Virus record (IMG/VR): IMGVR_UViG_3300021959_000031
Span: 1,565-65,564 of that record
Strand: one strand, 5' to 3'
DNA length: 64,000 bases
Source: a virus
Taxonomy: Duplodnaviria; Caudoviricetes
Numbering within the stretch: the first letter of the stretch is position 1; the number at the start of each line of letters is the position of its first letter. The notes beneath the pieces are model-generated. The model was not told where the DNA came from, searched no databases, and was given only the letters and a program-made list of their open reading frames with translations. Position numbers and translations under genes: made by a program. This document shows positions 5,678 through 59,703 of this stretch, in pieces.

Positions 5678-7402
5678 ATGGGATTTTTAGTATCACCTGG
5701 AGTCGAGGTCAATGAAATTGACTTGACAAACATCATCCCAGCTCTCTCCACTAGTATTGGAGCATATGCTGGGTATTTTAATTGGGGACCTGCTGGCGAA
5801 GTAGTCACAGTATCCTCTGAGAAGCAATTAGCACAAGTATTTGGGTCGCCTGAAAAAGCAGACTCAGCTGAGATATCATTCTTTACTGCAGCTAGTTTTT
5901 TGAAGTATGGAAACAATCTTAAAGTTTCTAGAGCAATTCCAACAGATGCGTATAACGCAAAATCTGGAACTGGTTCAGCAGACTTTACTATTTCAAACAG
6001 AGATGAACTTGAGCTTAATGCTGGAGGTCTTCAAACAGATGGAGCAGAAGTAGTTGCTCGTTATGTTGGAGAGCTTGGAAATAGCATTAAAACTTACATA
6101 GTTGACAGCGCAGTTTACGCTGATTCTCCACCACTTCCATCGAATGTTCTCGGTGCATTACCATATGCTCCCGATGACACTGTATTTGGATCAACTTTAG
6201 CTGGTGCTGGAATCAATGACGAAGTTCATGTGGTTGTGGTAGATGCTGATGGAAAAATCACAGGAACTAAAGATGCTATTCTTGAAGTTCATGCTGGTCT
6301 TTCAACTGCACAAAATGCTAAGAGTGAATATGGTGACAGTAACTATTTTGTTACAGTTATCAACAACAACTCTTCATTCATCTGGCTCGCTCCAGAAGCA
6401 ACTCCAACTGTTATCGATGAGGACACAGCTGATATTGTTAATGGATTCACATCTGCTGGATTAGATTTAGCTGGTGGTGCAACAGGAACTATGACAAGTG
6501 CAGGTCCTGTTGAGACTGCTTTGACATTCTTCGATGATGCAATCAAGATTGATGTTAACCTTCTTTTCGCACAAAACTTCGCAGATGGATCAACTTATAC
6601 TGGTTCAAGCACAGAGACAATCGACAACAAGTTGGTTGAAATTGCTAATGCTCGTAAGGATGCAATCTCGTTTATTTCTGCACCACTCAGTGTTGTAGAC
6701 CAGACAAGTGAAGATGCTAAGAAAGGAAAGATCCTAGACAAGTTTAATGGAATTTCTTCAAGTAGTTATATATTCTTTGATAGTTCACCCGCTTATGTTT
6801 ACAACAAATATCGTGATGGTTATGTTTGGATTCCACTATGTGGTCACATGGCTGGTCTTTGTGCTGGAACAGATGACGTTGCAGACCCTTGGTTCTCACC
6901 AGCTGGATACACAAGAGGAAACGTCCTCGGTGTAACTAAGTTGGCTTATAACCCAGGTCAAGTTGCAAGAGATGAGTTATACACAAAGCGTGTTAACCCT
7001 GTTGTTAGTTTTCCAGGTCAAGGAATCGTTCTTTTCGGTGACAAGACTGGTCTTACTAAGCCCTCTGCTTTTGATCGTATCAATGTTCGTAGACTATTCA
7101 CCACAATCGAAAAAGCAATTGCAACTGCTTCTAAGTTCCAGTTGTTTGAACTCAATGATGACTTCACACGTTCTACATTTAGAAACGCTGTTGAACCATA
7201 CTTGAGAGATGTTCAGGGTCGCCGTGGAATCACCGACTTCAAAGTTGTCTGTGACGAAACCAACAATACTGGTGACGTTATCGATGGCAATCGTTTTGTT
7301 GCTGATATCTACATCAAACCAACTCGTAGCATTAACTTCATATCGTTGAACTTTATTGCAACTAGAACTGGTGTTAGCTTCGATGAAATCATTGGAGAAT
7401 AG
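5678..7402 (+). CDS. gp18: tail sheath protein
   Basis: SPGVEVNEIDLT, WFSPAG..RG, FGDKT, FDRINVRRLF, YIKPTRSINFI. Confidence 0.97.
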   Translation: MGFLVSPGVEVNEIDLTNIIPALSTSIGAYAGYFNWGPAGEVVTVSSEKQLAQVFGSPEKADSAEISFFTAASFLKYGNNLKVSRAIPTDAYNAKSGTGSADFTISNRDELELNAGGLQTDGAEVVARYVGELGNSIKTYIVDSAVYADSPPLPSNVLGALPYAPDDTVFGSTLAGAGINDEVHVVVVDADGKITGTKDAILEVHAGLSTAQNAKSEYGDSNYFVTVINNNSSFIWLAPEATPTVIDEDTADIVNGFTSAGLDLAGGATGTMTSAGPVETALTFFDDAIKIDVNLLFAQNFADGSTYTGSSTETIDNKLVEIANARKDAISFISAPLSVVDQTSEDAKKGKILDKFNGISSSSYIFFDSSPAYVYNKYRDGYVWIPLCGHMAGLCAGTDDVADPWFSPAGYTRGNVLGVTKLAYNPGQVARDELYTKRVNPVVSFPGQGIVLFGDKTGLTKPSAFDRINVRRLFTTIEKAIATASKFQLFELNDDFTRSTFRNAVEPYLRDVQGRRGITDFKVVCDETNNTGDVIDGNRFVADIYIKPTRSINFISLNFIATRTGVSFDEIIGE

Positions 7403-7403: not shown

Positions 7404-7411
7404 TATAAATA
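7404..7411 (+). promoter_or_regulatory. late promoter TATAAATA for gp19
   Basis: Exact consensus. Confidence 0.75.
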
Positions 7412-7442: not shown

Positions 7443-7979
7443 ATGTCTAATATATCTGATTTTAAAGCAAACTTTAACGGTGGGTCTAGAGCAAACTTGT
7501 TCAAGGCTATCGTTAATTTTCCTGGTGATAACAAGTCATTAACTGAACTGAGTTCTTTCATGATCAAGGGAGCATCTCTCCCCGCCAGTGTAATTGCAAA
7601 CATTGATGTTCCTTATAGGGGTCGTCAAATTAAAGTTGCAGGTGACCGCACATTCGAACCAATGACATTCACTGTTATCAATGATGGTAACATGGTGATT
7701 CGTAATGAGTTCGAAAAGTGGATGAATGCAATTAGCGCACATGAGGGTAATACTTCAGCATTCTCAACAGTTGGCAATCCTCTTGCTTACTATGCAGATG
7801 TTGAAATCTACCAGCTAGATCGCTCTGGAAGTGAAGTTCCAACTAAAGCATACAAGCTTATTGATGCTTATCCTACAAACGTAAGTGCAATCGAGTTGTC
7901 ATATGATGCCAACGATGCAGTTGAAGAGTTTACTGTAGAGATGAGTTTCCAATACTGGACTTCAAATACAACATCTTAA
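7443..7979 (+). CDS. gp19: tail tube protein
   Basis: GG.RANLF, ASLPAS, YRGRQIKVAGDRTF, YPTNVSAIELSYD, EEFTVE..FQYW. Confidence 0.96.
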   Translation: MSNISDFKANFNGGSRANLFKAIVNFPGDNKSLTELSSFMIKGASLPASVIANIDVPYRGRQIKVAGDRTFEPMTFTVINDGNMVIRNEFEKWMNAISAHEGNTSAFSTVGNPLAYYADVEIYQLDRSGSEVPTKAYKLIDAYPTNVSAIELSYDANDAVEEFTVEMSFQYWTSNTTS

Positions 7980-8050: not shown

Positions 8051-9556
8051 ATGAATCTATTTGGATATGAAATAACTAAGAAGATCGATGCAGGGGAATC
8101 TAAAAAGCAGACCCCCGAGTTGCAATCGTTTGCGAACCCTATGGACTCTGAGGGTACATCTTATGTTAGTGCAGTTGGTGGTGGTGCAGGATTTAACACC
8201 CAAATTTTAGATTTAGATTCTCACTCATCTGGCAGTGAGAAAGATCTTATAAAAAAATATAGGCAGACCGCGGCGCAACCAGAGTGTGATATTGCAATCA
8301 ATGATATTTTAAATCAGGCTATAGTATCTGACACTGAAAGTCCTGTTAACTTAGTACTAGACAAAGTTGATTTGCCCGATAAGATTAAGACTAGTATCAA
8401 AAATGAATTTGAGTCTGTTCTTAATCTTTTAGACTTTAACTTTTCTGGTCATGACATTTTCAGAAGATGGTATATTGATGGGAAGTTGTATTACCATTTG
8501 CTTGTCGATAATGACAACCTTAAAGGTGGTATTCAAGAGGTAAGAATGGTTGATCCTTTGAATATAAAAAAGGTTAAAGAAGTTAAAAGAAAACTCGACA
8601 AGAACAGTGGTGTCGAGACTTCTTCATTGAGTAAAGAGTATTACGTTTATAGTGAATCTTCTGATTCTGGTTTAAAAAATAACGCGCTCAAGATTGACCC
8701 TAACAGTATCGTTTACACTCCAAGTGGTATGCTTGATGAGTATGGTAAATTTTCGATATCCTATTTACACAAGAGTATTAAGTTGGTGAACCAGTTGCGG
8801 GTCATGGAAGACTCTCTTGTTATCTACAGAATATCACGGGCACCAGAAAGAAGAATTTTCTACATCGATGTTGGAAACCTTCCAAAAGGTAAAGCAGAAG
8901 AGTATGTTCAAGGCATAATGAGCAAGTATAGGAACAAACTTGTCTATGATGCTACTAGTGGTGAGATCAGTGATGATAGAAAAACAATGAGTATGCTTGA
9001 AGATTTCTGGCTTCCTCGCCGTGAAGGTGGTAAGGGAACTGAGATAACAACTCTTCCTGGTGGTGAAAACCTAAGTCAAATTGACGATATCTTGTTTTTC
9101 CAGAAGAAACTATACAAGTCGTTAAACGTTCCAGTTGGGAGACTTGAAGAAGATAATGCATTTAGTGTTGGAAGAGCTAGTGAAATTACTAGAGATGAAG
9201 TCAAGTTTCAAAAGTTCATCAATAGATTGAGACTCAAGTTCAGCACACTGTTCATTGATATGCTGAAGGTTCAGTGCCTTCTTAAAGGTATCGTAACCAA
9301 AGATGAGTGGCCTCAAATACGTGAAAATGTGGAGATAGATTACTCAGAAGATAACTATTTCACAGAACTCAAAAACTTCGAAATAATGAGAGAGCGAATG
9401 GCTATGCTTCAAGATGTCGAAGATTATGTTGGAAAATACTTCAGTAAGTCTTGGGTTAGATCTAATGTGTTAAATATGACAGAGGATGATGTTGAAAAAC
9501 TAGAAAAGGAAATGGAGTCTGACGGTTCTAGAGATGAAGAAGAAGGAGAATTTTAA
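8051..9556 (+). CDS. gp20: portal vertex protein
   Basis: FRRWYIDG, EDSLVIYRISRAPERRIFYIDVGNLPK, EDFWLPRREGGKGTEITTLPGG. Confidence 0.97.
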   Translation: MNLFGYEITKKIDAGESKKQTPELQSFANPMDSEGTSYVSAVGGGAGFNTQILDLDSHSSGSEKDLIKKYRQTAAQPECDIAINDILNQAIVSDTESPVNLVLDKVDLPDKIKTSIKNEFESVLNLLDFNFSGHDIFRRWYIDGKLYYHLLVDNDNLKGGIQEVRMVDPLNIKKVKEVKRKLDKNSGVETSSLSKEYYVYSESSDSGLKNNALKIDPNSIVYTPSGMLDEYGKFSISYLHKSIKLVNQLRVMEDSLVIYRISRAPERRIFYIDVGNLPKGKAEEYVQGIMSKYRNKLVYDATSGEISDDRKTMSMLEDFWLPRREGGKGTEITTLPGGENLSQIDDILFFQKKLYKSLNVPVGRLEEDNAFSVGRASEITRDEVKFQKFINRLRLKFSTLFIDMLKVQCLLKGIVTKDEWPQIRENVEIDYSEDNYFTELKNFEIMRERMAMLQDVEDYVGKYFSKSWVRSNVLNMTEDDVEKLEKEMESDGSRDEEEGEF

Positions 9557-9568
9557 ATAAATAATAAG

Positions 9569-10189
9569 ATGAATGATTTAGTAAACAAAATAAAGCAGGG
9601 AAGCGAATCAGCTGACGAAGAATTTCAGAGTGGTATCTTAGACAAGGTTCGTGATGCACTGGATATGAAAAAAGTTGAGCTGGCTTCGAAAGTCTTCAAT
9701 TCAGAACCAATCGAAGAATCTACTAGGGAGATCGATATTGTTAAGGAAGCCGCCAACAAAATTATGAATCTTTCAGAAGCAGAAGTCGATGAAGAAGCAA
9801 AAAAGAATGCTGAAATTCTTAGAGATTTGTATTTAAAAGAGTTTCCAAATGGTTATGCTACAGTATCTAAAGCACCTCTAGGGAGTGATACTTTCTACTT
9901 GAAAGCTTATATCGGTAAGCCTGACACTTGGGCTAATGGAATATCTCAAAACGATGATCTTGCACATGCTTATCTTGTTACTAAAGACGGTGTTGAGTCT
10001 TCTCAGGGTATATCTTTGATGGTTGATCCAGAAAAGAAACATTTGGCAATGAGCAGAGTGAAGATTCCCTTCAGAAAGAAGAGTGGAAAAAATATGATTT
10101 CTGGAATGAAAAAACACTTCGCTAATATGAGAAAGATTGTAATGGCTAATAAAGATAAAATCTTTCATCGTAAAAATATCAAGCTATAA
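9569..10189 (+). CDS. gp67-like prohead core protein with extra C-terminal domain
   Basis: Position right after portal; N-terminal amphipathic segment (DLVNKIK..ADEEF..ILDKVRDALDMKKVELASKVF) resembles gp67; AATAAATA 5 nt upstream; C-terminal ~130-aa globular domain is extra. Confidence 0.65.
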   Translation: MNDLVNKIKQGSESADEEFQSGILDKVRDALDMKKVELASKVFNSEPIEESTREIDIVKEAANKIMNLSEAEVDEEAKKNAEILRDLYLKEFPNGYATVSKAPLGSDTFYLKAYIGKPDTWANGISQNDDLAHAYLVTKDGVESSQGISLMVDPEKKHLAMSRVKIPFRKKSGKNMISGMKKHFANMRKIVMANKDKIFHRKNIKL

Positions 10190-10193
10190 TCAA

Positions 10194-12497
10194 ATGAAGG
10201 AGTCAACAGAAAGCATTGAGTTTGTTTTAGATGAAAGCAAAGATCTTAAATTAAAAATACCCAATGATGTAATTAAGATCCATAAGCTATTCAAAAAGAA
10301 TGGCAAAAAACTCTATGTGGTTGGTGGAGCTGTAAGAGATGCAATACTTGGTAAATCACCAAAAGATTTTGATGTAGCGACTGATGCTAAACCAGATGAG
10401 GTTGAAAAGATAGCAAGGGATAATGGTATAAAAACTAAACCTGTTGGGAAGCAGTTTGGTGTTGTTTTGTATATTATCAATGGAGTGGAATATGAGATTG
10501 CAACATTTAGAAAAGATATTGGAAAGGGCAGAAGACCATCATCAGTAGATTATACTGATATTAAAGGTGATGTTAAAAGAAGAGATTTGACTGTGAATGC
10601 ATTATTCTATGATATTGATAAAAAAGAGATTGTAGATTTGGTTGGTGGTATTGCAGATTTAAAAAATAAAAACATCAGAACAGTTGGTAAAGCTAAAGAA
10701 AGATTTGATGAAGACCCCTTAAGAAAACTAAGGGCATTAAGATTTTGGACAAGAATGGGTGGTAAGTTAGATAAAGAGTTGTTAGACGCTTTACAAGATG
10801 ACTCATCATTAAAAGGAATCAGTTCAGAAAGAATTAGAGATGAGTTTATAAAGTCAATCAAATCATCAAAAAATACAGAAGAGTATATGGATATGTGTGA
10901 TAAGATTGGATTCACATCTCAGATATTCCCAAATCTAAAAGTATCAAAACCATATCCAAAAACAAATGACTTCATTTTGTTCTTGGCGTGGATATTAAGA
11001 GAGAATTCACCAATTGTATTAAATAGAGTTCTAAATGAGATAAGCTACACAAAGAAAGAAATACAAGAAATTGTTTATCTAATCAATCTTCAAGATTTCG
11101 AACCTGAAAATATTATTTCGTATAAGAAAAAACAATCTGAATCAGATGACAATAGGATTATTGCTTTTGGTAAAATGATTGGAAAAGATATGAAAAAGTT
11201 TGTCAATTTCAAGTTGTCACTTAAAGGGGCAGATATTCCATCTGATCTAAAAGGTCCCGAAAAGGGACAATGGATAAAAAATAAAGAAAAAGAGAATTTC
11301 ATGAAAAAATTAATAGAAAGCATTAAGTCGGGATCTGAAAAAGCTAGATCTGAGTTGAACGAGTTGTTGACTCAGAAAGTCAAAGTTCTTGTTAGTGAAG
11401 AGAAAAAGAATATAGCAAAGAATATTCTTAAAGAAGAGTCTATTACAGAGGATTTAGATCCTAATAGTGACGCTAAAGTTTGGATAGATGACTTTGTTAA
11501 AAGTGATGCACCTCAGTTCAAAGGGAAAACGAAAGAACAAAGAGTGAATATGGCATTAGGTGCTTACTATTCTGCTAGAAAAGAAGCTGGTCTTGAAGAA
11601 TCTATCGATCTTGAAGAAGCAACATTCAAGAACAAAGAGGTTGAGAAAAGATTTCTCGCATTGAAAAAGATGTCATCTTCTCAACTTAAGAAAGCTCACA
11701 GTGATGGTGTTGGTGGTTCTACTAGTGGTATGTCAGATGAAGACTTCATCAACGACATTCTTCTTTCAGAGTTTGGTATAAAGAAACTCAGTGAGGAAGC
11801 TGGTGTTTACTACACTTCTGATGGTGTTGAGTGGACTGGTCAAACACATTCACACCCGAATGGAAAAGTTATGACGGGAAAATCTCACACTGATGACAGT
11901 GTTGATCTACACACTATGGATGATTTGTCACCCGATGCTAAGAAAAAAGCAATGGAAGGTTCTGGATCTATGTCTGAGTCTGTAATGGATCAGAAGATGT
12001 GGGATAAGATCAAGAGGGGTGACAAACTAACAATTAGCTACGATGATAGCATAAGTGGTGGTAATAAAGTCACTCTTGTTGTAGTGAGTAAAAATATCGT
12101 TGGTAAGCAGAGGGTTGGTAAAATGACAATGAAGCGGGCAGATGGTAGTAGCAAGTTCAAATTCTACATTTACAATCGTGATGGTAAAATGGGCTTGGCA
12201 ATTGGCAATTTAGCAGCTAGCATGACAGATGTCGTGATGGAGAGTGAAGATGTTGAGGATCTTAAAGAGTGGGGTTCTTCAGACTGGTATAGTGTTATAA
12301 AATCAATGGACAAATACTTGAAAAAAGCAGGTGTTAATCCAGATACAATCACACAAGCCGCCCAAGATCAAGCAGATTTTTATTACGATGATATGGGATA
12401 TGATAGTGCTGAAGATGCTGTTCCAAGAATTATTGATATGTGGAAAATCAGATCTAAGACTGGTCAGAAGTTAATGGCAATGTTCGGTAAAAAATAA
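10194..12497 (+). CDS. class II tRNA nucleotidyltransferase (CCA-adding-like) fused to a gp67-like helix and several small domains
   Basis: Motif A VVGGAVRD..KDFDVAT, B RRDLTVNAL, D RFDEDPLR, E SSERIRDE in aa 1-370; then MKKLIESIKSGSEKARSEL..KNIAKNIL and further modules separated by xxE linkers. Confidence 0.88.
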   Translation: MKESTESIEFVLDESKDLKLKIPNDVIKIHKLFKKNGKKLYVVGGAVRDAILGKSPKDFDVATDAKPDEVEKIARDNGIKTKPVGKQFGVVLYIINGVEYEIATFRKDIGKGRRPSSVDYTDIKGDVKRRDLTVNALFYDIDKKEIVDLVGGIADLKNKNIRTVGKAKERFDEDPLRKLRALRFWTRMGGKLDKELLDALQDDSSLKGISSERIRDEFIKSIKSSKNTEEYMDMCDKIGFTSQIFPNLKVSKPYPKTNDFILFLAWILRENSPIVLNRVLNEISYTKKEIQEIVYLINLQDFEPENIISYKKKQSESDDNRIIAFGKMIGKDMKKFVNFKLSLKGADIPSDLKGPEKGQWIKNKEKENFMKKLIESIKSGSEKARSELNELLTQKVKVLVSEEKKNIAKNILKEESITEDLDPNSDAKVWIDDFVKSDAPQFKGKTKEQRVNMALGAYYSARKEAGLEESIDLEEATFKNKEVEKRFLALKKMSSSQLKKAHSDGVGGSTSGMSDEDFINDILLSEFGIKKLSEEAGVYYTSDGVEWTGQTHSHPNGKVMTGKSHTDDSVDLHTMDDLSPDAKKKAMEGSGSMSESVMDQKMWDKIKRGDKLTISYDDSISGGNKVTLVVVSKNIVGKQRVGKMTMKRADGSSKFKFYIYNRDGKMGLAIGNLAASMTDVVMESEDVEDLKEWGSSDWYSVIKSMDKYLKKAGVNPDTITQAAQDQADFYYDDMGYDSAEDAVPRIIDMWKIRSKTGQKLMAMFGKK

Positions 12498-12508
12498 AAT
12501 AAAATAAA

Positions 12509-12988
12509 ATGAAATCATTCGAAAATTATCTAGAAGAAGATTACGCAGAACTGCGTAGTTTTATTATTGAAGGTGTGGAGGTAACTATATCTGATTCAGA
12601 TCTCGATTCTTGTTTAGAAGAAATCGAAGATTTTAGTGATGATGTCAATGAGGCTCTGAACACTAGACAGAGGATGGATAGAAAGAACATGATGAAGAAG
12701 TATAAGCTTAACATAGCTCGCGGAAGGAAGAAAGCTGCGAAAAAGAGAGCTGGTCTTCCTAAGTTGAAAAGTAGAGCTATGAAAGCTGCTCGTAATCTTC
12801 TCATGAAAAAACTCTCCAAGGGTAAAGATAAGGCTAATATGTCTTTTGCTGAAAAGGAGAAGATAGAGAAGATACTTGATTCCAAGACAAAAAAGATAAA
12901 GGCGATTGCTAAAAAGCTTCTTCCTAAGATCATAAAGAAAGAGAAAGAGAAGCAGGCAATGAAGAAAAAAGGTGGTTCAGAAGAGTAA
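12509..12988 (+). CDS. gp68-like prohead core protein
   Basis: Acidic N-terminus and very basic C-terminal helix, immediately before gp21; starts MKSFENYLEE. Confidence 0.6.
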   Translation: MKSFENYLEEDYAELRSFIIEGVEVTISDSDLDSCLEEIEDFSDDVNEALNTRQRMDRKNMMKKYKLNIARGRKKAAKKRAGLPKLKSRAMKAARNLLMKKLSKGKDKANMSFAEKEKIEKILDSKTKKIKAIAKKLLPKIIKKEKEKQAMKKKGGSEE

Positions 12989-13024
12989 TATATCAAAATA
13001 AAACAATTCTAAACTTCTGAAATT

Positions 13025-13032
13025 TATAAATA
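13025..13032 (+). promoter_or_regulatory. late promoter TATAAATA for gp21
   Basis: Exact consensus 9 nt before ATG. Confidence 0.8.
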
Positions 13033-13041: not shown

Positions 13042-13698
13042 ATGAAATTAATAACGGAGCATAGCGAAAACTTAGACTACATAACTGAATCATCAGAAAA
13101 TGGAGAGAAGAAGTTTGTTATCGAAGGCGTTTTCATGCAGGCTGATAAACTCAATAGGAATAAAAGAGTATACCCTAAAGAAATTTTAGAGAAGGCAGTT
13201 GATTCGTATGTCAAAGAGTATGTGAGCAAGGGTCGTGCAGTTGGTGAACTCAATCACCCTGAGGGCCCAGCAATCAACTTGGATAAAGTATCACATAGAA
13301 TCACTGAACTGAGTTGGAGCGGTTCTGATGTTATTGGTAGAGCTTTAGTTCTTGGAACTCCAATGGGTAACATTGTTAAAGGCTTAATCGAAGGTGGTTG
13401 CCAACTTGGAGTTAGTTCCCGTGGTGTTGGAACAGTTGGTAATAAAGATGGAAAAACAACAGTAAACAGTGACTTCGTTTTGTCAACAGTTGATATTGTT
13501 CAAGACCCCAGCGCACCCTCTGCATTCGTCAATGGCATCATGGAAGGTGTTGAATATTTCTATGAAGGTAATGATATTATTTCAATGGCTTCAGATAAAG
13601 CTTCTAAAAAGATGAGTAAACTCTCATCTAGTCAACTCGCAGAGCAACAAGTGAAGTTGTTCAAAGATTTCTTGTCAGAGATCAAAGTTGATATTTAA
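13042..13698 (+). CDS. gp21: prohead core protease
   Basis: MKLITE, IEGVFMQ...NRN.RVYP, GELNHP, LGVSSRG.G, DIVQDPSAPSAFV.GIMEG. Confidence 0.96.
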   Translation: MKLITEHSENLDYITESSENGEKKFVIEGVFMQADKLNRNKRVYPKEILEKAVDSYVKEYVSKGRAVGELNHPEGPAINLDKVSHRITELSWSGSDVIGRALVLGTPMGNIVKGLIEGGCQLGVSSRGVGTVGNKDGKTTVNSDFVLSTVDIVQDPSAPSAFVNGIMEGVEYFYEGNDIISMASDKASKKMSKLSSSQLAEQQVKLFKDFLSEIKVDI

Positions 13699-13813: not shown

Positions 13814-15409
13814 ATGGAAAAAGATACTGATATCATTGAAGATATTACTGAATCCGATTTACTTTCTCTTGAAGAGTCAAAAGTAGAGGTTGATACTGAC
13901 ACTGTTGATAGTGACGAGGAAGAAATGGAAGAAGGTAATGAATTCACCAAAGCCGCCGCGAAAGCTCGTGTTGCAGGCGAGGAAGAGTTCGAATTTGAAG
14001 GTGAAGTTTATCCTACAGAAATCGACTTGGAAGTTGCCAAGAAGATTCTCGGTATGGAAGAAGATGTTGCTAAGATCAAGTCTGTTGCAAAATCTCTTAA
14101 GGTTGGTGATGTCACTAACTTTGGAGCTGTTGTTAAGAAAGGATCTGACTTCATCACGTTTAAAGCCAAAGACACTCCAGAAACTAAGATCAAGTTTGGT
14201 CAAAAGAAGTCTGGTGGTCAACTTGTGCTTGAACCACTTCAACTCATGAAAGAAGACTCTGAGCAAACTGAAGAAGTAGTTGCTGAAGAAGAAGTAGTCG
14301 AAACAACTCAAGAAGTAGTTGCAGATGAAACTGAAGAAGTAGTTGCTGAAGAAGTTGCAGAAGAAGAAGCTACTGAAGAAGAAGCTACTGAAGAAGTAGT
14401 TGCTGAAGAAGAAGCTACTGAAGAAGAAGTTGATACTGAGAACATCGATGAATCTGAAATGGCTGGATGGATAGCTTTCTACAACGGCAAGAAAGTAGAG
14501 ATCAAAAAGAGTGAAGCAAATGATCTATACGGAGCTAAGATGAAGGCTGCCAAAATGCTAAACGTACCTAAATCTAAGATGGGTCTCTTAGCTATCAAGC
14601 CTGGATACAATGAAGAAGTAGTTGCTGAAGATGAAGTTGACACTGAGAACATCAAGAAGTTGATCGAATCAGAAGAAGGTTTATCTGATGAGTTTAAAGC
14701 TAAATCCGCATTGATTTTCGAAACTGAGATTCGCAGTAAAGTGGATCAAGTTAAGGAGGAAATGCAACTTAAATATGACGCTCAACTTGAAGAAAAGGTT
14801 CAAGAAGTTGAAGAAGAGAATACTAAACAAATTGATGGATATCTCACTTATGCTGTTGAAGAATGGCTTGGAGAGAATAAGGTCGCTGTTGAGAGTTCAC
14901 TTCGCACAACTATTGCTGAAAACTTCATGAGTTCTCTCAAGGACTTGTTTGTTGAGCATTATGTCGAAGTTCCAGAAAGCAAGGTTGATCTTTTCTCTGA
15001 TCTTGAAGAAGAGACTAGTCAACTCAAAGATGATCTATCTGAAGCGAAGGAAATCATCGAACAACTTGTTGGTCGATTGGAAGTCTTCACTAAGGAAAAG
15101 ATTGTATCTGAAGCTTCTGAAGGTCTTGCTGAGACTCAAGTTGCGAAACTTGAATCTATGGTAGAATCTGTAGAGTTCGAAGATGCTGATTCATTCTGCA
15201 AAAGAGTTCAAACCCTTAAGGAGTTCTACTTCAATGTAGAATCCTCAATTAAAGAAGAAAAAGAATGTGAAGAAGAGGATGGTAGCTCTTCTTATGTCAC
15301 TACTGAAACTATTGTCGAAGAGACAGAAGTTGAGGAAGTGCCAAGCACAATGAAAAAATACCTAAATGCTATTACTCGTCTTGATCGTGCAAGCGTAAAG
15401 ATAAAGTAA
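13814..15409 (+). CDS. gp22: prohead core scaffold protein, enlarged by inserted domains and acidic repeats
   Basis: C-terminal half LSDEFKAK..LIFE, DGYLTYAVEEW..ENKVAVE...IAENFM.SLK.LFVEHY..VPE, M.KYL.AI; between gp21 and gp23. Confidence 0.92.
   Translation: MEKDTDIIEDITESDLLSLEESKVEVDTDTVDSDEEEMEEGNEFTKAAAKARVAGEEEFEFEGEVYPTEIDLEVAKKILGMEEDVAKIKSVAKSLKVGDVTNFGAVVKKGSDFITFKAKDTPETKIKFGQKKSGGQLVLEPLQLMKEDSEQTEEVVAEEEVVETTQEVVADETEEVVAEEVAEEEATEEEATEEVVAEEEATEEEVDTENIDESEMAGWIAFYNGKKVEIKKSEANDLYGAKMKAAKMLNVPKSKMGLLAIKPGYNEEVVAEDEVDTENIKKLIESEEGLSDEFKAKSALIFETEIRSKVDQVKEEMQLKYDAQLEEKVQEVEEENTKQIDGYLTYAVEEWLGENKVAVESSLRTTIAENFMSSLKDLFVEHYVEVPESKVDLFSDLEEETSQLKDDLSEAKEIIEQLVGRLEVFTKEKIVSEASEGLAETQVAKLESMVESVEFEDADSFCKRVQTLKEFYFNVESSIKEEKECEEEDGSSSYVTTETIVEETEVEEVPSTMKKYLNAITRLDRASVKIK
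14265..14446 (+). repeat. acidic tandem repeats (EEVVAEEE / EEEATEEE) within gp22
   Basis: Repeated GAAGAAGTAGTTGCTGAAGAA and GAAGAAGCTACTGAA units. Confidence 0.85.
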
Positions 15410-15446: not shown

Positions 15447-16667
15447 ATGTTCAATTCAGAAGAATTAGAAAAAAAGTGGGCCCCAATTCTTGAGGCGTCC
15501 GATGCACCTGCGTTTGCTGATCAGCACCGCAAGGCAGTTACTTCCGTCCTGCTTGAAAACCAAGAGAAGGCTCTCCAAGAGGCTTCTGCTCAAGCAAGTT
15601 TCCTTAGTGAGCAAACTGATTCAGGCGATTCTGCCAACTGGAATCCAGTATTGATTAGCCTTGTTCGTCGTGCTACTCCAAACCTCATTGCTTATGACGT
15701 TTGTGGTGTTCAGCCAATGACTGGCCCAACTGGACTCATTTTCGCAATGAAGTCACGTTACCAGACAGCTGATACTGTTAACAGTCCTGCACAACACGCA
15801 GCTGGTGATGAAGCTCTCTTCAATGAGCCAACTCCTGGATTCTCTGGTTCACAATCCACTGCACTTGGTGAGCAACTTGGTAACACAGGTGCTTATGGTG
15901 AGATGGGCTTCACTGTTGAAAAAGTTTCTGTTGAAGCTAAGACACGCGCTCTTAAAGCTGAATACACAATGGAACTTGCACAAGATCTTAAAGCAATTCA
16001 TGGTCTTGATGCTGAAGCTGAGCTTGCAAGCATTCTCTCTACTGAGATCCTTGCTGAGACTAACCGTGAAATCATCGGTCTGATCAACTCATCTGCTAAA
16101 GCAGGTGGTGCAGCTGCTGGTGGTTCATTCAGCCTCAACACTGATGCTGATGGTCGTTGGGCAAATGAGAAGTTCAAATCACTTCTCTTCCAACTTGAGC
16201 TTGATGCTAACGCAATTGCCAAAGGCACTCGTCGTGGAAAAGGTAACTATGTTATCTGTTCCTCCAACGTTGCTTCTGCACTTGCCGCAGCTGGTGTTCT
16301 TGATTACTCAACTGCTCTTTCAACTAACCTCAATGTTGATGACACTGGTAATACCTTCGCTGGTATGATCAATGGTCGCATCAAGGTTTACGTTGATCCA
16401 TATGCCGCAGCTGATTACGCAACTGTTGGTTACAAGGGTACAAACTCTTACGATGCTGGTATCTTCTACTGCCCATACGTTCCTCTTACTATGGTTCGTG
16501 CAGTTGGTGAGAACACATTCCAACCTAAGATTGGTTTCAAGTCACGTTACGGAATTGCAAGTAACCCAATGGTTACTGATCCTGCATCTTCTACTGGCGG
16601 TCTTGCAGCTAATGCTAACCCATACTTCAGAAGTTTCTCTGTATCGGGTATCAATGTTGAAGACTAA
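15447..16667 (+). CDS. gp23: major capsid protein
   Basis: LLENQE, PVLISLVRR..PNLIAYDVCGVQPMTGPTGLIFAM, ELAQDLKAIHGLDAEAEL, FYCPYVPL, FQPKIGFKSRYG. Confidence 0.98.
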   Translation: MFNSEELEKKWAPILEASDAPAFADQHRKAVTSVLLENQEKALQEASAQASFLSEQTDSGDSANWNPVLISLVRRATPNLIAYDVCGVQPMTGPTGLIFAMKSRYQTADTVNSPAQHAAGDEALFNEPTPGFSGSQSTALGEQLGNTGAYGEMGFTVEKVSVEAKTRALKAEYTMELAQDLKAIHGLDAEAELASILSTEILAETNREIIGLINSSAKAGGAAAGGSFSLNTDADGRWANEKFKSLLFQLELDANAIAKGTRRGKGNYVICSSNVASALAAAGVLDYSTALSTNLNVDDTGNTFAGMINGRIKVYVDPYAAADYATVGYKGTNSYDAGIFYCPYVPLTMVRAVGENTFQPKIGFKSRYGIASNPMVTDPASSTGGLAANANPYFRSFSVSGINVED

Positions 16668-37830: not shown

Positions 37831-38328
37831 ATGGAAGATGAAGCTTTAAAATTTGCGACTATGGCGCATGGTGATCAGAAGAGAAAATATACTGACGAAC
37901 CATATATTATCCACCCTATCGCTGTGGCTGAAATTGTGAAGTCTGTAGAACACACGGACGAAATGATTGCCGCGGCATTGCTTCATGATGTTGTAGAAGA
38001 CACTCCATTTACTATCGATGATATTTTCGATAGGTTTGGTGATAATGTCGGCGAACTTGTAAGTTGGTTAACTGACGTTAGTAGACCTGAGGATGGTAAT
38101 AGAAAAATAAGAAAGCGTATAGATAGAGAGCATATTGCAGAAGCACCCGCAGACGCGCAAACTATCAAAATAGCTGACTTGATACATAACACGGGAAGTA
38201 TAGAAAGATACGATCCAAGTTTCTGGAAAGTATACAAGCAAGAAAAAATTGATTTACTTGGTGTTCTAACTAAAGGTGATGCAACCTTACGTAAGATTGC
38301 TTATGAATTAACAGGAACACTAATATAA
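37831..38328 (+). CDS. HD-domain phosphohydrolase, Mesh1/SpoT-hydrolase-like
   Basis: AH.DQKRK...[31 protein letters not shown]. Confidence 0.88.
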
Positions 38329-38335: not shown

Positions 38336-38650
38336 ATGCAAGAATACACAGTAAAAGTAAAGGCTAATGGCAACAAGCGTTGGTATCAGAATGATATGTT
38401 TCATCGGTTAGATGGGCCTGCTATTGAATGGGCTGATGGAAGTAAGTTTTGGTTTCAAAATGGCAATCTTCATCGCGAAGATGGGCCTGCAGTTGAATGT
38501 GTTAATGGCTATAAGGCTTGGTATATTGGCGGTGAACAACTTACCGAAGATGAGTTTAACAATAGAACTAGCAATGTAGAGGTAACTCTTGAGGACATTG
38601 CTAAAGCTATGAATATAGACGTTGACAAGCTTCGCATTAAGGAACATTGA
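38336..38650 (+). CDS. HRxDGPA-repeat protein 1 (2 repeats)
   Basis: ORF; repeat family. Confidence 0.88.
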   Translation: MQEYTVKVKANGNKRWYQNDMFHRLDGPAIEWADGSKFWFQNGNLHREDGPAVECVNGYKAWYIGGEQLTEDEFNNRTSNVEVTLEDIAKAMNIDVDKLRIKEH

Positions 38651-38662
38651 TATAATAAGATT

Positions 38663-38974
38663 ATGGAAGAATACACAGTACAAGTATATGCTAAGGGTAA
38701 TAGGTCTTGGTATCAAGATGGTAAGTTTCACCGTCTAGATGGTCCTGCTATTGAACAGACTAATGGAAGTAAATTTTGGTATCAAAATGACAAGCGTCAT
38801 AGGTTAGATGGGCCTGCTGTTGAAGATGCTAATGGCTATAAGGCTTGGTTTATTGACGGTAAAGAGCTTACTGAAGAAGAGTTTAACAATCGTGACAAAG
38901 TAGAAGTAACTCTAGAGGATATCGCCGAAGCTATGAACATCGATGTTGACAAGCTTCGCATTAAGGAACACTAA
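38663..38974 (+). CDS. HRxDGPA-repeat protein 2 (2 repeats)
   Basis: ORF; repeat family. Confidence 0.88.
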   Translation: MEEYTVQVYAKGNRSWYQDGKFHRLDGPAIEQTNGSKFWYQNDKRHRLDGPAVEDANGYKAWFIDGKELTEEEFNNRDKVEVTLEDIAEAMNIDVDKLRIKEH

Positions 38975-38986
38975 TATAATAAAATT

Positions 38987-39517
38987 ATGGAAGAGTACAA
39001 AGTAAAGGTATATGCTAATGGTAATAGGGATTGGTATCAGAATGGCAAGCGTCATAGGTTAGATGGGCCTGCTTCTGAATATGCTAATGGAACAAAGTAT
39101 TGGTATCAGAATGGCAAGCGTCATAGGTTAGATGGGCCTGCTTCTGAATATGCTAATGGAACAAAGTATTGGTATCAAAATGACAAGCGTCATCGTCTAG
39201 ACGGGCCTGCAATTGAATCGTCTGATGGTAGTAAGGATTGGTATCAGAATGACAAGCGTCATAGGTTGGACGGCCCTGCAATTGAAGAAGCTAATGGTTA
39301 TAAGTCTTGGTGGCAAAATGGTATGCGCCATCGTCTAGACGGTCCTGCTTGTGAATATGCTGATGGTTATAAGGAATGGTATATTGACGGTGAACAACTT
39401 ACCGAAGAGGAGTTTAACAATAGAACTAGCAATGTAGAAGTAAATGAAGTAACTCTCGAAGATATCGCAAAAGCTATGAATATAGACGTTGATAAATTAC
39501 TCATTAAGGAACACTAA
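38987..39517 (+). CDS. HRxDGPA-repeat protein 3 (5 repeats)
   Basis: ORF; first two units are identical 69-bp copies. Confidence 0.88.
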   Translation: MEEYKVKVYANGNRDWYQNGKRHRLDGPASEYANGTKYWYQNGKRHRLDGPASEYANGTKYWYQNDKRHRLDGPAIESSDGSKDWYQNDKRHRLDGPAIEEANGYKSWWQNGMRHRLDGPACEYADGYKEWYIDGEQLTEEEFNNRTSNVEVNEVTLEDIAKAMNIDVDKLLIKEH

Positions 39518-39529
39518 TATAATAAAATT

Positions 39530-39910
39530 ATGGAAGAATACACAGTAAAGGTAAATGATAGTGGAGCAAAGTTTTGGTATCAAAATGATAAACTACATCG
39601 GTTAGATGGACCTGCTTCTGAATATGCTAGTGGTAGTAAGGCTTGGTATCAAAATGGTAAGCTTCATCGGTTAGATGGACCTGCAATTGAATGGTCTGAT
39701 GGTAGTAAGGTTTGGTATCAGAACAATAAGCGTCATCGCGAAGATGGACCTGCAATTGATGATGCTGATGGTTATAAGGAATGGTATATCGAAGGTAAAC
39801 GGCTTACCGAAGAGAAGTTTAACAATCGTAATAAAGTCGAAGTAACTCTAGAGGATATCGCCGAAGCTATGAATATAGACGTTGATAAGCTCCGCATTAA
39901 GGAACACTGA
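39530..39910 (+). CDS. HRxDGPA-repeat protein 4 (3 repeats)
   Basis: ORF; repeat family. Confidence 0.88.
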   Translation: MEEYTVKVNDSGAKFWYQNDKLHRLDGPASEYASGSKAWYQNGKLHRLDGPAIEWSDGSKVWYQNNKRHREDGPAIDDADGYKEWYIEGKRLTEEKFNNRNKVEVTLEDIAEAMNIDVDKLRIKEH

Positions 39911-39922
39911 TATAATAAAATT

Positions 39923-40243
39923 ATGCAAGAATACACAGTAAAGGTAAATCAATATGGCAACAAGTATTGGTATCAAAATGGTAAACTTCATAGGTTAGAT
40001 GGACCTGCTTGTGAATTTGCTAATGGTAACAAGTATTGGTGGAAAAACAATAAGCGTCATCGCGAAGATGGGCCTGCTGTTGAAGATGCTAATGGCTATA
40101 AGGCTTGGTTTATTGACGGTAAAGAGCTTAGTGAAGAAGAGTTTAATGATAGAACTAGCAATGTAGAAGTAACTCTAGAGGATATTGCTAAAGCCATGAA
40201 CATCGACGTTGATAAGCTAAGGGTTAAAGGAACACTAATATAA
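39923..40243 (+). CDS. HRxDGPA-repeat protein 5 (2 repeats; shifted C-terminus KGTLI)
   Basis: ORF; repeat family. Confidence 0.88.
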   Translation: MQEYTVKVNQYGNKYWYQNGKLHRLDGPACEFANGNKYWWKNNKRHREDGPAVEDANGYKAWFIDGKELSEEEFNDRTSNVEVTLEDIAKAMNIDVDKLRVKGTLI

Positions 40244-40250
40244 TTAGATC

Positions 40251-40346
40251 ATGGAGACAGTAATTGAAGAAGTTTTAGGATTCGTAATGGGGATAGTATT
40301 AATGGTTGGTATTATCTTTGTTATTGTCGAACTAATATGTGATTGA
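40251..40346 (+). CDS. 31-aa single-helix membrane peptide (not in ORF track)
   Basis: METVIEEVLGFVMGIVLMVGIIFVIVELICD; sits between array junction sequences. Confidence 0.5.
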   Translation: METVIEEVLGFVMGIVLMVGIIFVIVELICD

Positions 40347-40381
40347 TGGACAGGAAGTAGTAACACTAATATAATAATAGT

Positions 40382-40762: not shown

Positions 40763-40774
40763 CATAATAAAATT

Positions 40775-56479: not shown

Positions 56480-56658
56480 AGACTATACGTTAATGGATGG
56501 TTCTTTTTAAATAGGATCTTCAAATTTACAAGCGGATTAATGAAAACTAGCAAAGGGTGCCGATAATAGCATTGTTAGTAATCCAAACATTTAATCAAGT
56601 TTTTAGTTTCCATATTTATACACAACGGTGAACACCATTTTCGTATAAATAGATCTAT

Positions 56659-59694: not shown

Positions 59695-59703
59695 ATAAAA
59701 AAA

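What the first reader, a model, noticed from the sequence alone, without database searches (positions are those of the whole stretch)
10194..12497. CCA-adding-like tRNA nucleotidyltransferase fused to a gp67-like core helix inside the head operon
Seen: aa ~15-370 hold intact class II NTase motifs (GGAVRD..DFD, RRD, EDPLR, SERIRDE). GKQFG stands where poly(A) polymerases have their G.RF.L signature, and there is a short RKDIGKGRRP loop and no HD domain. It runs in frame into MKKLIESIKSGSEKARSEL...KNIAKNIL (ATG 11301), which resembles the N-terminus of the neighbouring 9569 protein. A 14-aa leader ends in VLDE. Established: such enzymes build or repair tRNA 3' CCA, and several host defences attack tRNAs. 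Inference: late expression and fusion to a core helix suggest a virion-packaged tRNA repair/maturation enzyme that acts right after injection.
Basis: partly seen in the sequence, partly recalled or inferred. Interest (0 to 1): 0.82.

Follow-up and report, generated by a model that had tools for sequence, protein, structure and literature searches.

The report
tRNA-end enzyme fused to capsid-core protein
An uncultured marine T4-like phage has a CCA-adding-type RNA enzyme joined in one reading frame to a capsid-core protein, in a form that looks built to be cut loose inside the capsid and injected with the DNA, which has not been described for this kind of enzyme.

Summary
ORF 10194-12497 (767 aa) lies between portal gene 20 and prohead protease gene 21 of an uncultured marine T4-like phage. 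Residues 15-369 are a class II nucleotidyltransferase (PF01743, 121.7 bits). Its best solved matches are CCA-adding enzymes. It is about equally close to PcnB poly(A) polymerase and has no HD domain. Residue 370 (ATG 11301) aligns with Met1 of T4 gp67 (40% identity over 58 aa). Five small modules follow. Contigs from three independent DNA runs and three related proteins (99, 90 and 88% identical) carry the same junction, so it is not an assembly error. Other relatives have the gp67 part as a separate gene. The nucleotidyltransferase cassette recurs in at least 119 copies in other architectures. Wherever anything precedes it (54 of 54), an L/I-x-E motif, the T4 gp21 cleavage motif, comes directly before it. 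The motif also follows it in 82 of 85 copies. Borders of the small modules carry aliphatic-x-Glu about 4.4 times more often than expected, but not L/I-x-Asp. My best reading, at about 50%, is cargo drawn into the prohead core, released by the prohead protease and injected. Packaging, cleavage and enzyme specificity are all inferred. It is a new variant of a known kind. Interest 0.72.

The parts
10194..12497 (+). Whole ORF of 767 aa: leader, nucleotidyltransferase cassette, gp67-like segment and five small modules
   Evidence: ORF; same architecture in P0003, P0004, P0005; contigs of 3 independent DNA runs bridge the junction
10194..10235 (+). 14-aa leader MKESTESIEFVLDE, ending in L-D-E. This is a candidate propeptide and a gp21-type cleavage site before Ser15.
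   Evidence: In one search, 5 of 5 head-core genes have L/I-x-E in the first 16 aa against 5 of 42 other genes. Leaderless relatives begin at the aligned position.
10236..11300 (+). Class II nucleotidyltransferase cassette, aa 15-369. The PolyA_pol head is at aa 40-162 (10311-10679) and the RNA-binding domain at aa 192-249 (10767-10940).
11301..11435 (+). gp67-like prohead-core segment, aa 370-414. It starts at the ATG that matches Met1 of T4 gp67. L-I-E (aa 373-375) and L-K-E (aa 412-414) sit where T4 gp67 has L-I-E.
   Evidence: Pfam and PHROG
11454..11600 (+). Module M2 (LDP..AKVWIDDFVKSDAPQFKGK..AGLEE), a widespread small module
   Evidence: at least 542 viral-contig stretches; 130 hits in 128 proteins; border motifs
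11619..11795 (+). Module M3 (ATFKNKEVEKRF...GIKKLSE)
11799..11966 (+). Module M4, a swappable cassette. In P0004, P0122 and a contig of run X6 it is replaced by a different stretch (11795-11974 replaced by 240 nt).
11979..12242 (+). Module M5, a small beta-barrel (six strands, block pLDDT 84-95)
   Evidence: no significant fold match
12264..12494 (+). Module M6, a four-helix unit (WGSSDW...; block pLDDT 92-98 over most of it)
9569..10189 (+). Neighbouring ORF of 206 aa whose first 50 aa are also gp67-like. It is probably the first gp67 paralogue of this phage.
12509..12988 (+). Neighbouring ORF of 159 aa in the gene-68 position. Its N-terminus MKSFENYLEE closely resembles the T4 IPII/IPIII capsid targeting sequence MKTYQEFIAE, and its C-terminal half is basic.
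   Evidence: homology to T4 gp68 not shown
13042..13698 (+). Prohead protease (gp21, Peptidase S77 type), the presumed processing enzyme
   Evidence: 46% identity to T4 gp21 over 145 aa, E 5e-35
8051..9556 (+). Portal protein (gp20), the upstream limit of the core-gene slot
   Evidence: window order sheath, tube, portal, 9569, target, 12509, gp21, gp22, gp23 matches T4 order 18-19-20-67-68-21-22-23
7404..7411 (+). T4-type late promoter motif TATAAATA, the nearest one upstream of the target. The next is at 13025-13032, before gp21.

Best explanation
The gene encodes capsid cargo.

**What is shown**
- A class II tRNA nucleotidyltransferase cassette of the CCA-adding/poly(A) polymerase family was recombined onto the start codon of a second gp67 (prohead core) gene.
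- This happened in an uncultured marine T4-like phage, between portal gene 20 and protease gene 21.

**What is inferred**
- The 767-aa protein is made late, as part of the tube-portal-core transcription unit.
- It enters the assembling prohead core through its gp67-like helix and possibly through its 14-aa leader.
- The gp21-type prohead protease then cuts it after aliphatic-x-Glu motifs. The main predicted sites are VLDE14|S and KLIE375|S, with several more between the small C-terminal modules.
- This would free a nucleotidyltransferase of about 361 residues inside the head. It is probably too large to leave the capsid, so it would be ejected with the DNA into the next host.
- There it would restore or extend tRNA 3' ends before any phage gene is expressed. 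That could counter host tRNA-directed defences or mature phage tRNAs that lack an encoded CCA.
For: **1. Position and homology**
- The gene order matches T4 18-19-20-67-68-21-22-23.
- Residue 370 aligns with Met1 of T4 gp67 (40% over 58 aa, E 2e-5; hhalign probability 82%).
- The two L-I-E positions of T4 gp67 are matched by L-I-E and L-K-E.

**2. The fusion is real and recent**
- Three related proteins carry it, and contigs from three independent DNA runs bridge it.
- Relatives P0122, P0063 and P0065 (417-546 aa) begin at the gp67 Met as separate genes.

**3. The cassette has conserved boundaries**
- I examined 119 nucleotidyltransferase domains in 118 of the 120 listed homologues. Of these, 65 start directly at the cassette boundary.
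- All 54 that are preceded by at least 4 residues have L/I-x-E just before the cassette, in 18 distinct upstream contexts.
- Of the 96 domains checked for a C-terminal anchor, 86 had one and 85 had at least 6 residues after it. L/I-x-E lies within 12 residues after the anchor in 82 of those 85, leading into different downstream domains.

**4. Module borders across the family**
- L/I-x-E occurs at 121 of 168 borders (27.3 expected) and V/M-x-E at 75 of 168 (15.7 expected).
- L/I-x-D occurs at 10 of 168 (19.3 expected) and K/R-x-E at 16 of 168 (19.3 expected).
- The preference for Glu over Asp matches what a review reports for T4 gp21 (PMC9026906, passages read).

**5. Within the window**
- Five of 5 consecutive head-core genes, the target included, have L/I-x-E within their first 16 residues, against 5 of 42 other genes (Fisher p 1.6e-4).
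- L/I-x-E density is 0.85 per 100 aa in the nucleotidyltransferase part, like sheath and portal. It is 2.26 in the C-terminal half, nearer to gp21 (3.67) and gp22 (3.01).

**6. Protease and expression**
- The protease is 46% identical to T4 gp21.
- The T4-type late promoter motif sits at 7404 and 13025, with none before 10194 or 11301.

**7. Precedent**
- T4 packages Alt and the internal proteins through N-terminal propeptides of 10-19 aa that gp21 removes. Foreign proteins fused to such a sequence are packaged and delivered (PMC9026906; PMC3012670; passages read).

**8. Enzyme**
- The catalytic motifs are intact and the best solved matches are CCA-adding enzymes.
- Close relatives pair the same cassette with an HD phosphohydrolase domain.
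- The one tRNA gene in the window has no encoded CCA.
Against: - No virion, proteome or cleavage data exist for this uncultured phage.
- Within this one protein, the placement of L/I-x-E sites in low-confidence linkers is not significant (7 of 13, p 0.13; C-terminal half 6 of 9, p 0.07). The key site KLIE375 lies in a predicted continuous helix.
- The leader does not have the hydrophobic residues at positions 4 and 7 that matter for T4 targeting.
- Pfam GP67 scores below its cut-off.
- The conserved border motifs could partly be inherited linker sequence or recombination joints rather than protease sites. The counted instances are related sequences, so the p-values overstate independence.
- In the other phage lineage the cassette lies 4-13 kb upstream of the portal, not in the core slot.
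- Three of the five records searched for a portal (fragments, 28-46% complete) hold the cassette in open frames of 373-555 aa with no portal in the record. The cassette therefore also exists outside head modules.
- Enzyme specificity is unresolved.
- RNA-library contigs cover parts of the gene but none bridges 11301, and DNA carry-over cannot be excluded.
Confidence: 0.5

Rival explanations
1. Cytoplasmic enzyme, incidental fusion. The nucleotidyltransferase landed in the head operon and lost the stop before gene 67. It works in the infected cell late in infection, repairing or maturing tRNAs, and is not packaged. The gp67 part acts as a core protein, either as the fusion or from its own retained ATG 11301.
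For: - Relatives encode the cassette alone or with non-capsid domains (open frames of 373-555 aa in G003-G005; P0067 of 423 aa).
- Phage tRNA nucleotidyltransferases are common stand-alone genes outside head modules. 504 phage records match the protein, and 0 of them cover at least 80% of it.
- The A-rich stretch before 11301 resembles the leaders of real starts in this phage, which lacks Shine-Dalgarno sites. Internal initiation therefore cannot be excluded.
- The gp67-like part exists as a separate gene in relatives.
Against: - The fusion is kept in at least three diverged relatives (88-99% identity) and in several independent samples.
- A leader ending in L-x-E is kept in front of the cassette, although 65 of 119 relatives do without any leader.
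- A full-length product fused to a core protein would be drawn into proheads unless it is excluded in some way.
- The A-rich stretch before 11301 encodes the conserved K-N-K-E-K-E-N-F end of the cassette, so it is not specific evidence for a start.
Confidence: 0.3
2. The enzyme is not a tRNA CCA-adding or repair enzyme. It could be a poly(A) polymerase, or another RNA 3'-tailing enzyme that marks host or phage RNAs for decay. This holds whether or not it is packaged.
For: - The NCBIfam PcnB subfamily model scores 186.6 bits and the best CCA equivalog 184.7 bits. Both are below their cut-offs.
- E. coli poly(A) polymerase 3aqm matches at E 7e-31, against 3e-34 for the best CCA-adding enzyme.
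- The H-G-T seen in the two best CCA-adding matches is F-G-V here.
Against: - The top matches are CCA-adding enzymes both by sequence and by fold, over about 350-400 columns.
- PHROG 2244 'tRNA nucleotidyltransferase' gives E 3.7e-58.
- Relatives add an HD domain after the cassette. From recall, that pairing is known from the multifunctional CCA addition/repair protein of E. coli.
- The fold model of the head domain has low confidence, so the fold ranking is weak evidence.
Confidence: 0.17
3. Artefact: a chimeric assembly, or a sequencing error that hides a stop or frameshift between the two halves.
For: - The window is a metagenome-assembled fragment estimated 36% complete.
- One RNA-library contig has an extra A at 10867, in a run of A.
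Against: - Contigs from three DNA runs of three different studies bridge 11301 with no indel or stop.
- Three diverged relatives keep the frame.
- The junction falls exactly at the conserved end of the cassette and at Met1 of gp67.
Confidence: 0.02

Closest known systems
T4 internal proteins IPI, IPII, IPIII and Alt (cargo with a capsid targeting sequence, processed by gp21 and injected)
   Same: The gene sits in a T4-type head-gene setting. It has an N-terminal propeptide of 10-19 aa ending in L/I-x-E, the neighbouring protease is a gp21 homologue, and the expected cargo is an enzyme or anti-defence protein delivered with the DNA (PMC9026906 and PMC3012670, passages read; T4 N-termini).
   Different: - The cargo is a CCA-adding-type nucleotidyltransferase. 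None of the papers I searched reports this.
- It is fused to a gp67 homologue inside the 20-21 slot rather than encoded elsewhere with only a targeting sequence.
- Its leader is a poor match to MKTYQEFIAE.
T4 gp67 prohead core protein (Pfam PF17634, PHROG 1064)
   Same: It sits at the same position, after gene 20. It is 40% identical over the first 58 residues, starting from Met1, and the L-I-E sites are conserved.
   Different: - T4 gp67 is an 80-aa stand-alone protein with a poly-acidic tail.
- Here the homologous helix is internal. It follows 369 residues of leader and enzyme and is followed by about 350 residues of small modules.
- A second gp67-like gene (9569) lies just upstream.
- The Pfam score is below the cut-off.
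Stand-alone phage tRNA nucleotidyltransferases (PHROG 2244; for example Aeromonas phage CC2, Ruegeria phages, mycobacteriophages)
   Same: They share the same class II domain, at 28-40% identity over aa 2-411 at most.
   Different: In those phages the matches cover at most 52% of the query: 0 of 504 records cover at least 80% of it. Of the 40 listed matches, 23 carry a nucleotidyltransferase or poly(A) polymerase annotation, and none of the annotations names a capsid-core part.
Polyvalent proteins of phages and conjugative elements (Iyer et al. 2017, PMC5512222; passages read)
   Same: These are multidomain proteins that combine conflict-related enzyme domains. They are predicted to be packaged in the head, injected with the DNA and cut into pieces.
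   Different: - Pfam finds no MuF or portal fusion and no built-in peptidase domain here.
- Processing would be done by the separate S77 prohead protease at L/I-x-E linkers.
- In the passages I read, 'CCA-adding' occurs 0 times, and RNA ligases were stated not to associate with polyvalent 2H domains.
Ejection proteins of giant phages (phiKZ/SPN3US type), processed by the prohead protease
   Same: Many head-internal proteins, enzymes among them, are cut by the prohead protease after short x-E motifs and ejected (SPN3US papers PMC5694885 and PMC7411985: search listing and abstracts only).
   Different: This is a different phage group with a different cleavage motif. No tRNA nucleotidyltransferase is reported in what I saw.

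Membership tests
Class II nucleotidyltransferase (CCA-adding enzyme / poly(A) polymerase superfamily, PF01743 + PF12627) | PolyA_pol head domain above Pfam's gathering score | tested here: met
   121.7 bits against cut-off 23, aa 40-162
Class II nucleotidyltransferase (CCA-adding enzyme / poly(A) polymerase superfamily, PF01743 + PF12627) | Catalytic and nucleotide-binding motifs (GGxVRD..DxD, RRD, EDxxR, SxERxxxE) intact | tested here: met
All are present and aligned to the CCA-adding enzyme 6ibp.
Class II nucleotidyltransferase (CCA-adding enzyme / poly(A) polymerase superfamily, PF01743 + PF12627) | RNA-binding neck/body domain (PF12627) | tested here: met
   25.3 bits against cut-off 22, aa 192-249. 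The fold matches span about 350-400 columns of CCA-adding enzymes, but the model has low confidence.
CCA tRNA nucleotidyltransferase, equivalog level (NCBIfam NF009814 and related) | Score above the curated equivalog cut-off | tested here: not met
   184.7 bits against cut-off 290. All other CCA equivalogs are also below their cut-offs.
PcnB poly(A) polymerase (NCBIfam TIGR01942 / NF008634) | Score above the curated cut-off | tested here: not met
   186.6 bits against 305.65, and 114.7 against 702
CCA tRNA nucleotidyltransferase, equivalog level (NCBIfam NF009814 and related) | Adds C, C, A to tRNA 3' ends and stops | not testable with these tools
   Needs an enzyme assay
T4 gp67 prohead core protein (PF17634) | Pfam GP67 above the gathering score | tested here: not met
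   17.2 bits against cut-off 27, aa 370-427
T4 gp67 prohead core protein (PF17634) | Direct similarity to T4 gp67 from its first residue | tested here: met
   BLASTP 40% over 58 aa, E 2e-5; hhalign probability 82%, E 1.1e-5; PHROG 1064 E 4.3e-5
T4 gp67 prohead core protein (PF17634) | Gene lies between portal gene 20 and protease gene 21 | tested here: met
T4 gp67 prohead core protein (PF17634) | Component of the prohead core, cut by gp21 | not testable with these tools
   Only the conserved L-I-E and L-K-E positions are seen
T4-type cargo with a capsid targeting sequence | N-terminal propeptide of 10-19 residues ending in L/I-x-E | tested here: met
   14 residues ending in L-D-E; definition from PMC9026906
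T4-type cargo with a capsid targeting sequence | Sequence likeness to the T4 IPII/IPIII targeting sequence, with hydrophobic residues at positions 4 and 7 | tested here: not met
   The target has Ser at positions 4 and 7. The neighbouring ORF 12509 (MKSFENYLEE) does match.
T4-type cargo with a capsid targeting sequence | Found in virions and delivered to the host | not testable with these tools
   Uncultured phage
Polyvalent proteins (Iyer et al. 2017) | Fusion to MuF/portal-type head-packaging domains, or built-in peptidase domains | tested here: not met
   No such Pfam domain in the 767-aa protein

The most novel reading that the evidence does not exclude
The window gene is one member of a large, undescribed class of 'beads-on-a-string' capsid cargo proteins in marine phages that have T4-type portals and S77 prohead proteases.

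- Enzyme cassettes and many small modules are joined by aliphatic-x-Glu linkers. The enzymes include the CCA-adding-type nucleotidyltransferase, an HD phosphohydrolase, and cytidylyltransferase-like and P-loop kinase domains.
- The linkers would serve both as prohead-protease cut sites and as the joints at which cassettes are exchanged between phages.
- These phages would then inject a ready-made RNA-end repair kit with their DNA.

The C-terminal half alone finds 2007 cluster representatives at E <= 0.001, and one module occurs in at least 542 viral-contig stretches.
Probability: 0.35. Interest if true: 0.85.

Novelty: new variant of a known kind. Interest (0 to 1): 0.72.

Why it matters
Several bacterial defences stop phages by cutting or altering tRNAs. 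Known phage answers, such as T4 polynucleotide kinase with RNA ligase or phage-encoded tRNAs, must first be expressed.

An RNA-end repair enzyme already present in the capsid would act before any phage gene is read. That would be a new class of injected counter-defence.

The finding also suggests that T4-type capsid targeting and gp21 processing are used in the ocean as a general delivery system for exchangeable enzyme cassettes. This is testable by virus-particle metaproteomics and by simple co-expression of the protease with its substrate.

The L/I-x-E-bounded cassettes would also give a rule for predicting capsid cargo in uncultured phages.

Tried and rejected
**Leads that found nothing or were dropped**
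- **Homology of ORF 12509 to T4 gp68.** BLASTP gave E 0.38 and Pfam found nothing. It stays a positional analogue only.
- **Basic C-terminal tails of the nucleotidyltransferase-HD relatives as homologues of ORF 12509.** BLASTP against P0022 gave E 1.2. I dropped the idea.
- **RNA-ligase-like domain at the C-terminus of the long relatives (L011 aa 776-1205), guessed from a K-x-D-G-like motif.** There was no PDB hit and no PHROG hit. I do not claim it.
- **Genomic context of the stand-alone gp67-part genes.**
  - The one metagenome scan returned only 3 distant module hits.
  - A scan of viral contigs for the junction peptide found 0 stretches.
  - So I could not see whether those relatives lack the nucleotidyltransferase or have it as a separate upstream gene.
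- **DNA search of the phage collection with 9500-13000.** No match.
- **Binding of the gp67-like segment to the scaffold protein gp22 (complex prediction).** The tool gave no answer (score 0.00). This is evidence neither for nor against binding.
- **Fold searches of modules M5+M6.** There were 0 matches at E <= 0.001 in the PDB and 0 in BFVD. Weak likeness of the beta-barrel to unnamed proteins of T4-like phages is only a lead.
- **ESM Atlas search of the C-terminal part.** No usable hit.
- **Linker test within this one protein.** Not significant.
- **RNA runs.** The contigs cover parts of the gene but do not bridge 11301, so they say nothing about one transcript or internal starts.
- **Shine-Dalgarno analysis.** The phage has essentially no such sites (median +0.4 kcal/mol over 47 starts). 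It cannot decide whether 11301 is used as a start.

**Limits of what I could see**
- Supplementary files of papers were not seen. Virion proteome tables of marine T4-like phages, if any exist there, could bear on the packaging claim.
Full report
**1. What is there**

The window is a 64-kb piece of a 65.6-kb IMG/VR viral record estimated 36% complete. It has about 36% G+C. Its genes run in the T4 order:
- sheath (5678-7402)
- tube (7443-7979)
- portal (8051-9556)
- a 206-aa ORF (9569-10189)
- the target (10194-12497)
- a 159-aa ORF (12509-12988)
- prohead protease (13042-13698)
- scaffold (13814-15409)
- major capsid protein (15447-16667)

This comes, compared with T4 genes 18-19-20-67-68-21-22-23. 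The nearest cultured phages by major capsid protein are only 52-57% identical: Stenotrophomonas DLP_6, Methylophilales phage Melnitz and Pelagibacter phages HTVC008M and Mosig. This is therefore an uncultured marine T4-like myovirus. Independent marine and estuary metagenomes hold the stretch: 20 of the 24 listed runs, from 14 studies.

**2. The observation**

The 767-aa ORF is as described.

*Nucleotidyltransferase part.*
- Residues 40-162 match the PolyA_pol head domain (E 3.1e-35) and residues 192-249 match its RNA-binding domain. No HD domain is found.
- PHROG 2244 'tRNA nucleotidyltransferase' covers residues 37-403 (E 3.7e-58).
- The best solved relatives are CCA-adding enzymes (6ibp at 3e-34, human TRNT1, B. 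stearothermophilus). E. coli poly(A) polymerase is close behind (3aqm, 7e-31).
- The NCBIfam PcnB subfamily and CCA equivalog models score alike (186.6 and 184.7 bits) and both stay below their cut-offs.
- A fold search with a low-confidence full-length model (mean pLDDT 64.9) again ranks CCA-adding enzymes first.
- The enzyme class is secure. The specificity is not.

*Capsid-core part.*
- From residue 370 (ATG 11301) the protein aligns with T4 gp67 from Met1 to Met1: 40% identity over 58 residues, E 2e-5, hhalign probability 82%.
- L-I-E and L-K-E sit where T4 gp67 has its two L-I-E motifs.
- The upstream ORF 9569 starts with a weaker copy of the same helix. The phage therefore has two gp67-like genes, one of them carrying the enzyme.

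**3. The fusion is real and recent**

- Three related proteins from other assemblies keep the whole architecture (99%, 90% and 88% identity).
- Contigs from three DNA runs of three studies cross 11301 with no stop or indel.
- Proteins P0122 (417 aa), P0063 (491 aa) and P0065 (546 aa) start at the gp67-like Met and are 67-72% identical to the C-terminal half. In some relatives that half is therefore a separate gene.
- I could not fetch their contigs (contig look-up closed). Whether a nucleotidyltransferase gene lies upstream of them is open.

**4. The nucleotidyltransferase is a mobile cassette**

- Hundreds of metagenome proteins carry the same domain at 54-83% identity in other architectures. 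It occurs alone, followed by an HD domain, with a cytidylyltransferase-like domain, with a HAD-like (DUF2608) region, or doubled, in proteins of up to about 1300 aa.
- In locus L003 the domain is 83% identical to the window's. There it sits inside a 1652-aa protein two genes upstream of the large terminase, and the portal of that phage is only 28% identical to the window's.
- In two nearly complete genomes of 173 and 181 kb, the cassette protein lies about 10-13 kb upstream of the portal on the same strand. For the 181-kb record this assumes the linear record is circularly permuted.
- The enzyme domain has therefore moved between phage lineages far more recently than their structural genes diverged. 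This last point is an inference.

**5. Boundaries of the cassette**

I examined 119 cassette copies in the proteins.
- 65 copies start right at the boundary (M-S-N-L-K-L..., or a shorter start).
- All 54 copies preceded by at least four residues have L/I-x-E directly before the cassette, in 18 different upstream contexts: short leaders, HD domains and other domains.
- After the conserved end (K-E-K-E-N-F/Y), L/I-x-E follows within 12 residues in 82 of the 85 copies that have an anchor and at least six further residues. These lead into at least 15 different continuations.
- In the window protein, the usual L-x-E after E-N-F is replaced by M-K-K-L-I-E, which is the start of gp67 with its own L-I-E.

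**6. The C-terminal half is a string of modules**

- It has five modules after the gp67-like helix (M2-M6; coordinates are in the parts list).
- A full search of 1.8 billion cluster representatives found 2007 proteins at E <= 0.001. They match single modules, in proteins of 63-1303 aa and in different orders.
- One module (K-S-D-A-P-Q-F...) occurs in at least 542 stretches of viral contigs.
- In a more distant T4-like contig (L053) it lies between portal and protease.
- M4 is replaced by an unrelated stretch in P0004 and P0122 and in a contig of run X6.
- M5 folds as a small beta-barrel and M6 as four helices, both with high confidence. Neither has a significant match in the PDB or BFVD.

**7. 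Border motif test**

The test covered four kinds of module border, counting each distinct flank once. Results for 168 borders:

| Motif at border | Observed | Expected |
|---|---|---|
| L/I-x-E | 121 | 27.3 |
| V/M-x-E | 75 | 15.7 |
| A/G/S/T-x-E | 54 | 34.4 |
| K/R-x-E | 16 | 19.3 |
| L/I-x-D | 10 | 19.3 |

- The border signal is aliphatic-x-Glu specifically, not general acidity.
- A review of T4 head assembly states that gp21 cuts after Glu in L/I-x-E and that Asp at that place blocks processing. It also states that internal proteins carry 10-19-residue N-terminal targeting propeptides, and that gp67 and gp68 are core proteins cut into fragments (PMC9026906, passages read).
- The window's protease is 46% identical to T4 gp21.

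Caveats:
- The instances are related sequences.
- Part of the motif may be inherited with the module.
- Within the window protein alone, the link between sites and predicted linkers is not significant.

**8. Other signs in the window**

- Five of 5 consecutive head-core genes (target, 12509, protease, scaffold, capsid protein) have L/I-x-E within the first 16 residues, against 5 of 42 other genes (p 1.6e-4).
- ORF 12509 begins MKSFENYLEE. T4 IPII and IPIII begin MKTYQEFIAE.
- The target's own leader is a poor match apart from its L-D-E end.
- L/I-x-E density is low in the enzyme part (0.85 per 100 aa) and higher in the C-terminal half (2.26), nearer to protease and scaffold (3.67 and 3.01).
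- The T4 late promoter motif TATAAATA occurs 12 times, 11 of them on the + strand and mostly just before genes. It sits at 7404 and 13025 and not before 10194 or 11301. The target is therefore probably read as part of a late tube-portal-core transcript (inference).
- The phage lacks Shine-Dalgarno sites, so use of ATG 11301 as an extra start can neither be shown nor excluded.

**9. Most likely mechanism**

See Best explanation. Shown here:
- the architecture
- its conservation
- the homologies
- the cassette and module boundaries
- the motif statistics

Inferred:
- late expression
- entry into the prohead core
- cleavage at VLDE14 and KLIE375 and between the modules
- retention of the roughly 361-residue enzyme in the head
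- ejection, and action on tRNA 3' ends

The single tRNA gene in the window (61973-62058) has no encoded CCA. This fits a need for CCA addition but is common among phage tRNAs.

**10. Comparison with what is known, and novelty**

The principle of cargo targeted to the T4 prohead core, trimmed by gp21 and injected is established for Alt and the internal proteins. Polyvalent injected proteins have been proposed for other phages (PMC5512222, passages; PMC7824862, passages).

Three things appear to be new:
- the cargo, a CCA-adding-type enzyme
- the carrier, a fusion to a gp67 paralogue inside the 20-21 slot
- the wider pattern of L/I-x-E-bounded cassettes

Four full-text searches found no paper describing a virion-packaged tRNA nucleotidyltransferase or a gp67 fusion (listings and abstracts seen). 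In the polyvalent-protein paper, 'CCA-adding' occurs 0 times. Subscription-only papers and supplements were not visible.

**11. Verdict**

The finding is a new variant of a known kind. Interest is 0.72. Confidence in the packaging-and-processing mechanism is about 0.5.

Noticed in passing
window 12509-12988: A 159-aa ORF in the gene-68 position starts MKSFENYLEE. This matches the T4 IPII/IPIII capsid targeting sequence MKTYQEFIAE closely, position by position, and the C-terminal half is very basic. PHROG 23027 (unknown function) gives E 1.2e-9. Homologues lie within 1-3 kb of the K-S-D-A-P-Q-F module in many viral contigs.
   Followed up: partly
window 45916-46689: A cytidyltransferase-like ORF (PHROG 395, E 1e-33; no Pfam hit at E <= 0.001) begins MKSFRSFVES, which also resembles the T4 targeting sequence, although it lies far from the head genes. 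Relatives (P0132, P0137) fuse this domain to a P-loop kinase (Zeta_toxin/AAA_33) and to the M2 module.
   Followed up: partly
window 38336-41305: A tandem array of eight paralogous small genes (104-176 aa), each starting M-[QE]-E-Y-[TK]-V-[KQR]-V with a W-Y-Q-N-x-K-x-H-R-x-D-G-P-A motif. Pfam gives only a sub-threshold DUF6745 hit for one member.
   Followed up: partly
window 61973-62058: A tRNA gene with anticodon CAT, 86 nt long, so it has an unusually long variable region for a Met-type tRNA. It has no encoded 3' CCA; the next bases are CTT.
   Followed up: partly
window 11795-11974: Population polymorphism. In a 4.9-kb contig of run X6, and in proteins P0004 and P0122, module M4 is replaced by an unrelated stretch of 240 nt (about 80 aa). 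Loose ends of contigs cluster at 11197-11319, near the fusion junction, as expected if cassettes are exchanged there.
   Followed up: partly
window 10867: One metatranscriptome contig (run X11, depth about 7) has an extra A in a run of A inside the nucleotidyltransferase part. No DNA run shows it. It is probably an assembly or slippage error.
   Followed up: no
window, whole: Gene starts have essentially no Shine-Dalgarno complementarity (median +0.4 kcal/mol over 47 starts) and sit in A/T-rich leaders. The T4 late promoter motif TATAAATA occurs 12 times, against 5.6 expected, and 11 of those are on the + strand.
   Followed up: partly
window 37831-38328: A stand-alone HD_4 domain protein (E 2.3e-17), of the HD type that Pfam names HD_4. 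It is separate from the target, which has no HD domain.
   Followed up: no
window 56000-60000: A G+C rise to 0.42-0.44, against about 0.36 elsewhere, coincides with a 1011-aa ORF (56659-59694) that has no Pfam match and is preceded by a late promoter motif at 56644.
   Followed up: no
L011 1-8838: A giant ORF of at least 2925 aa lies directly upstream of the 1205-aa nucleotidyltransferase polyprotein in a 173-kb, 95%-complete phage genome. I did not analyse it.
   Followed up: no
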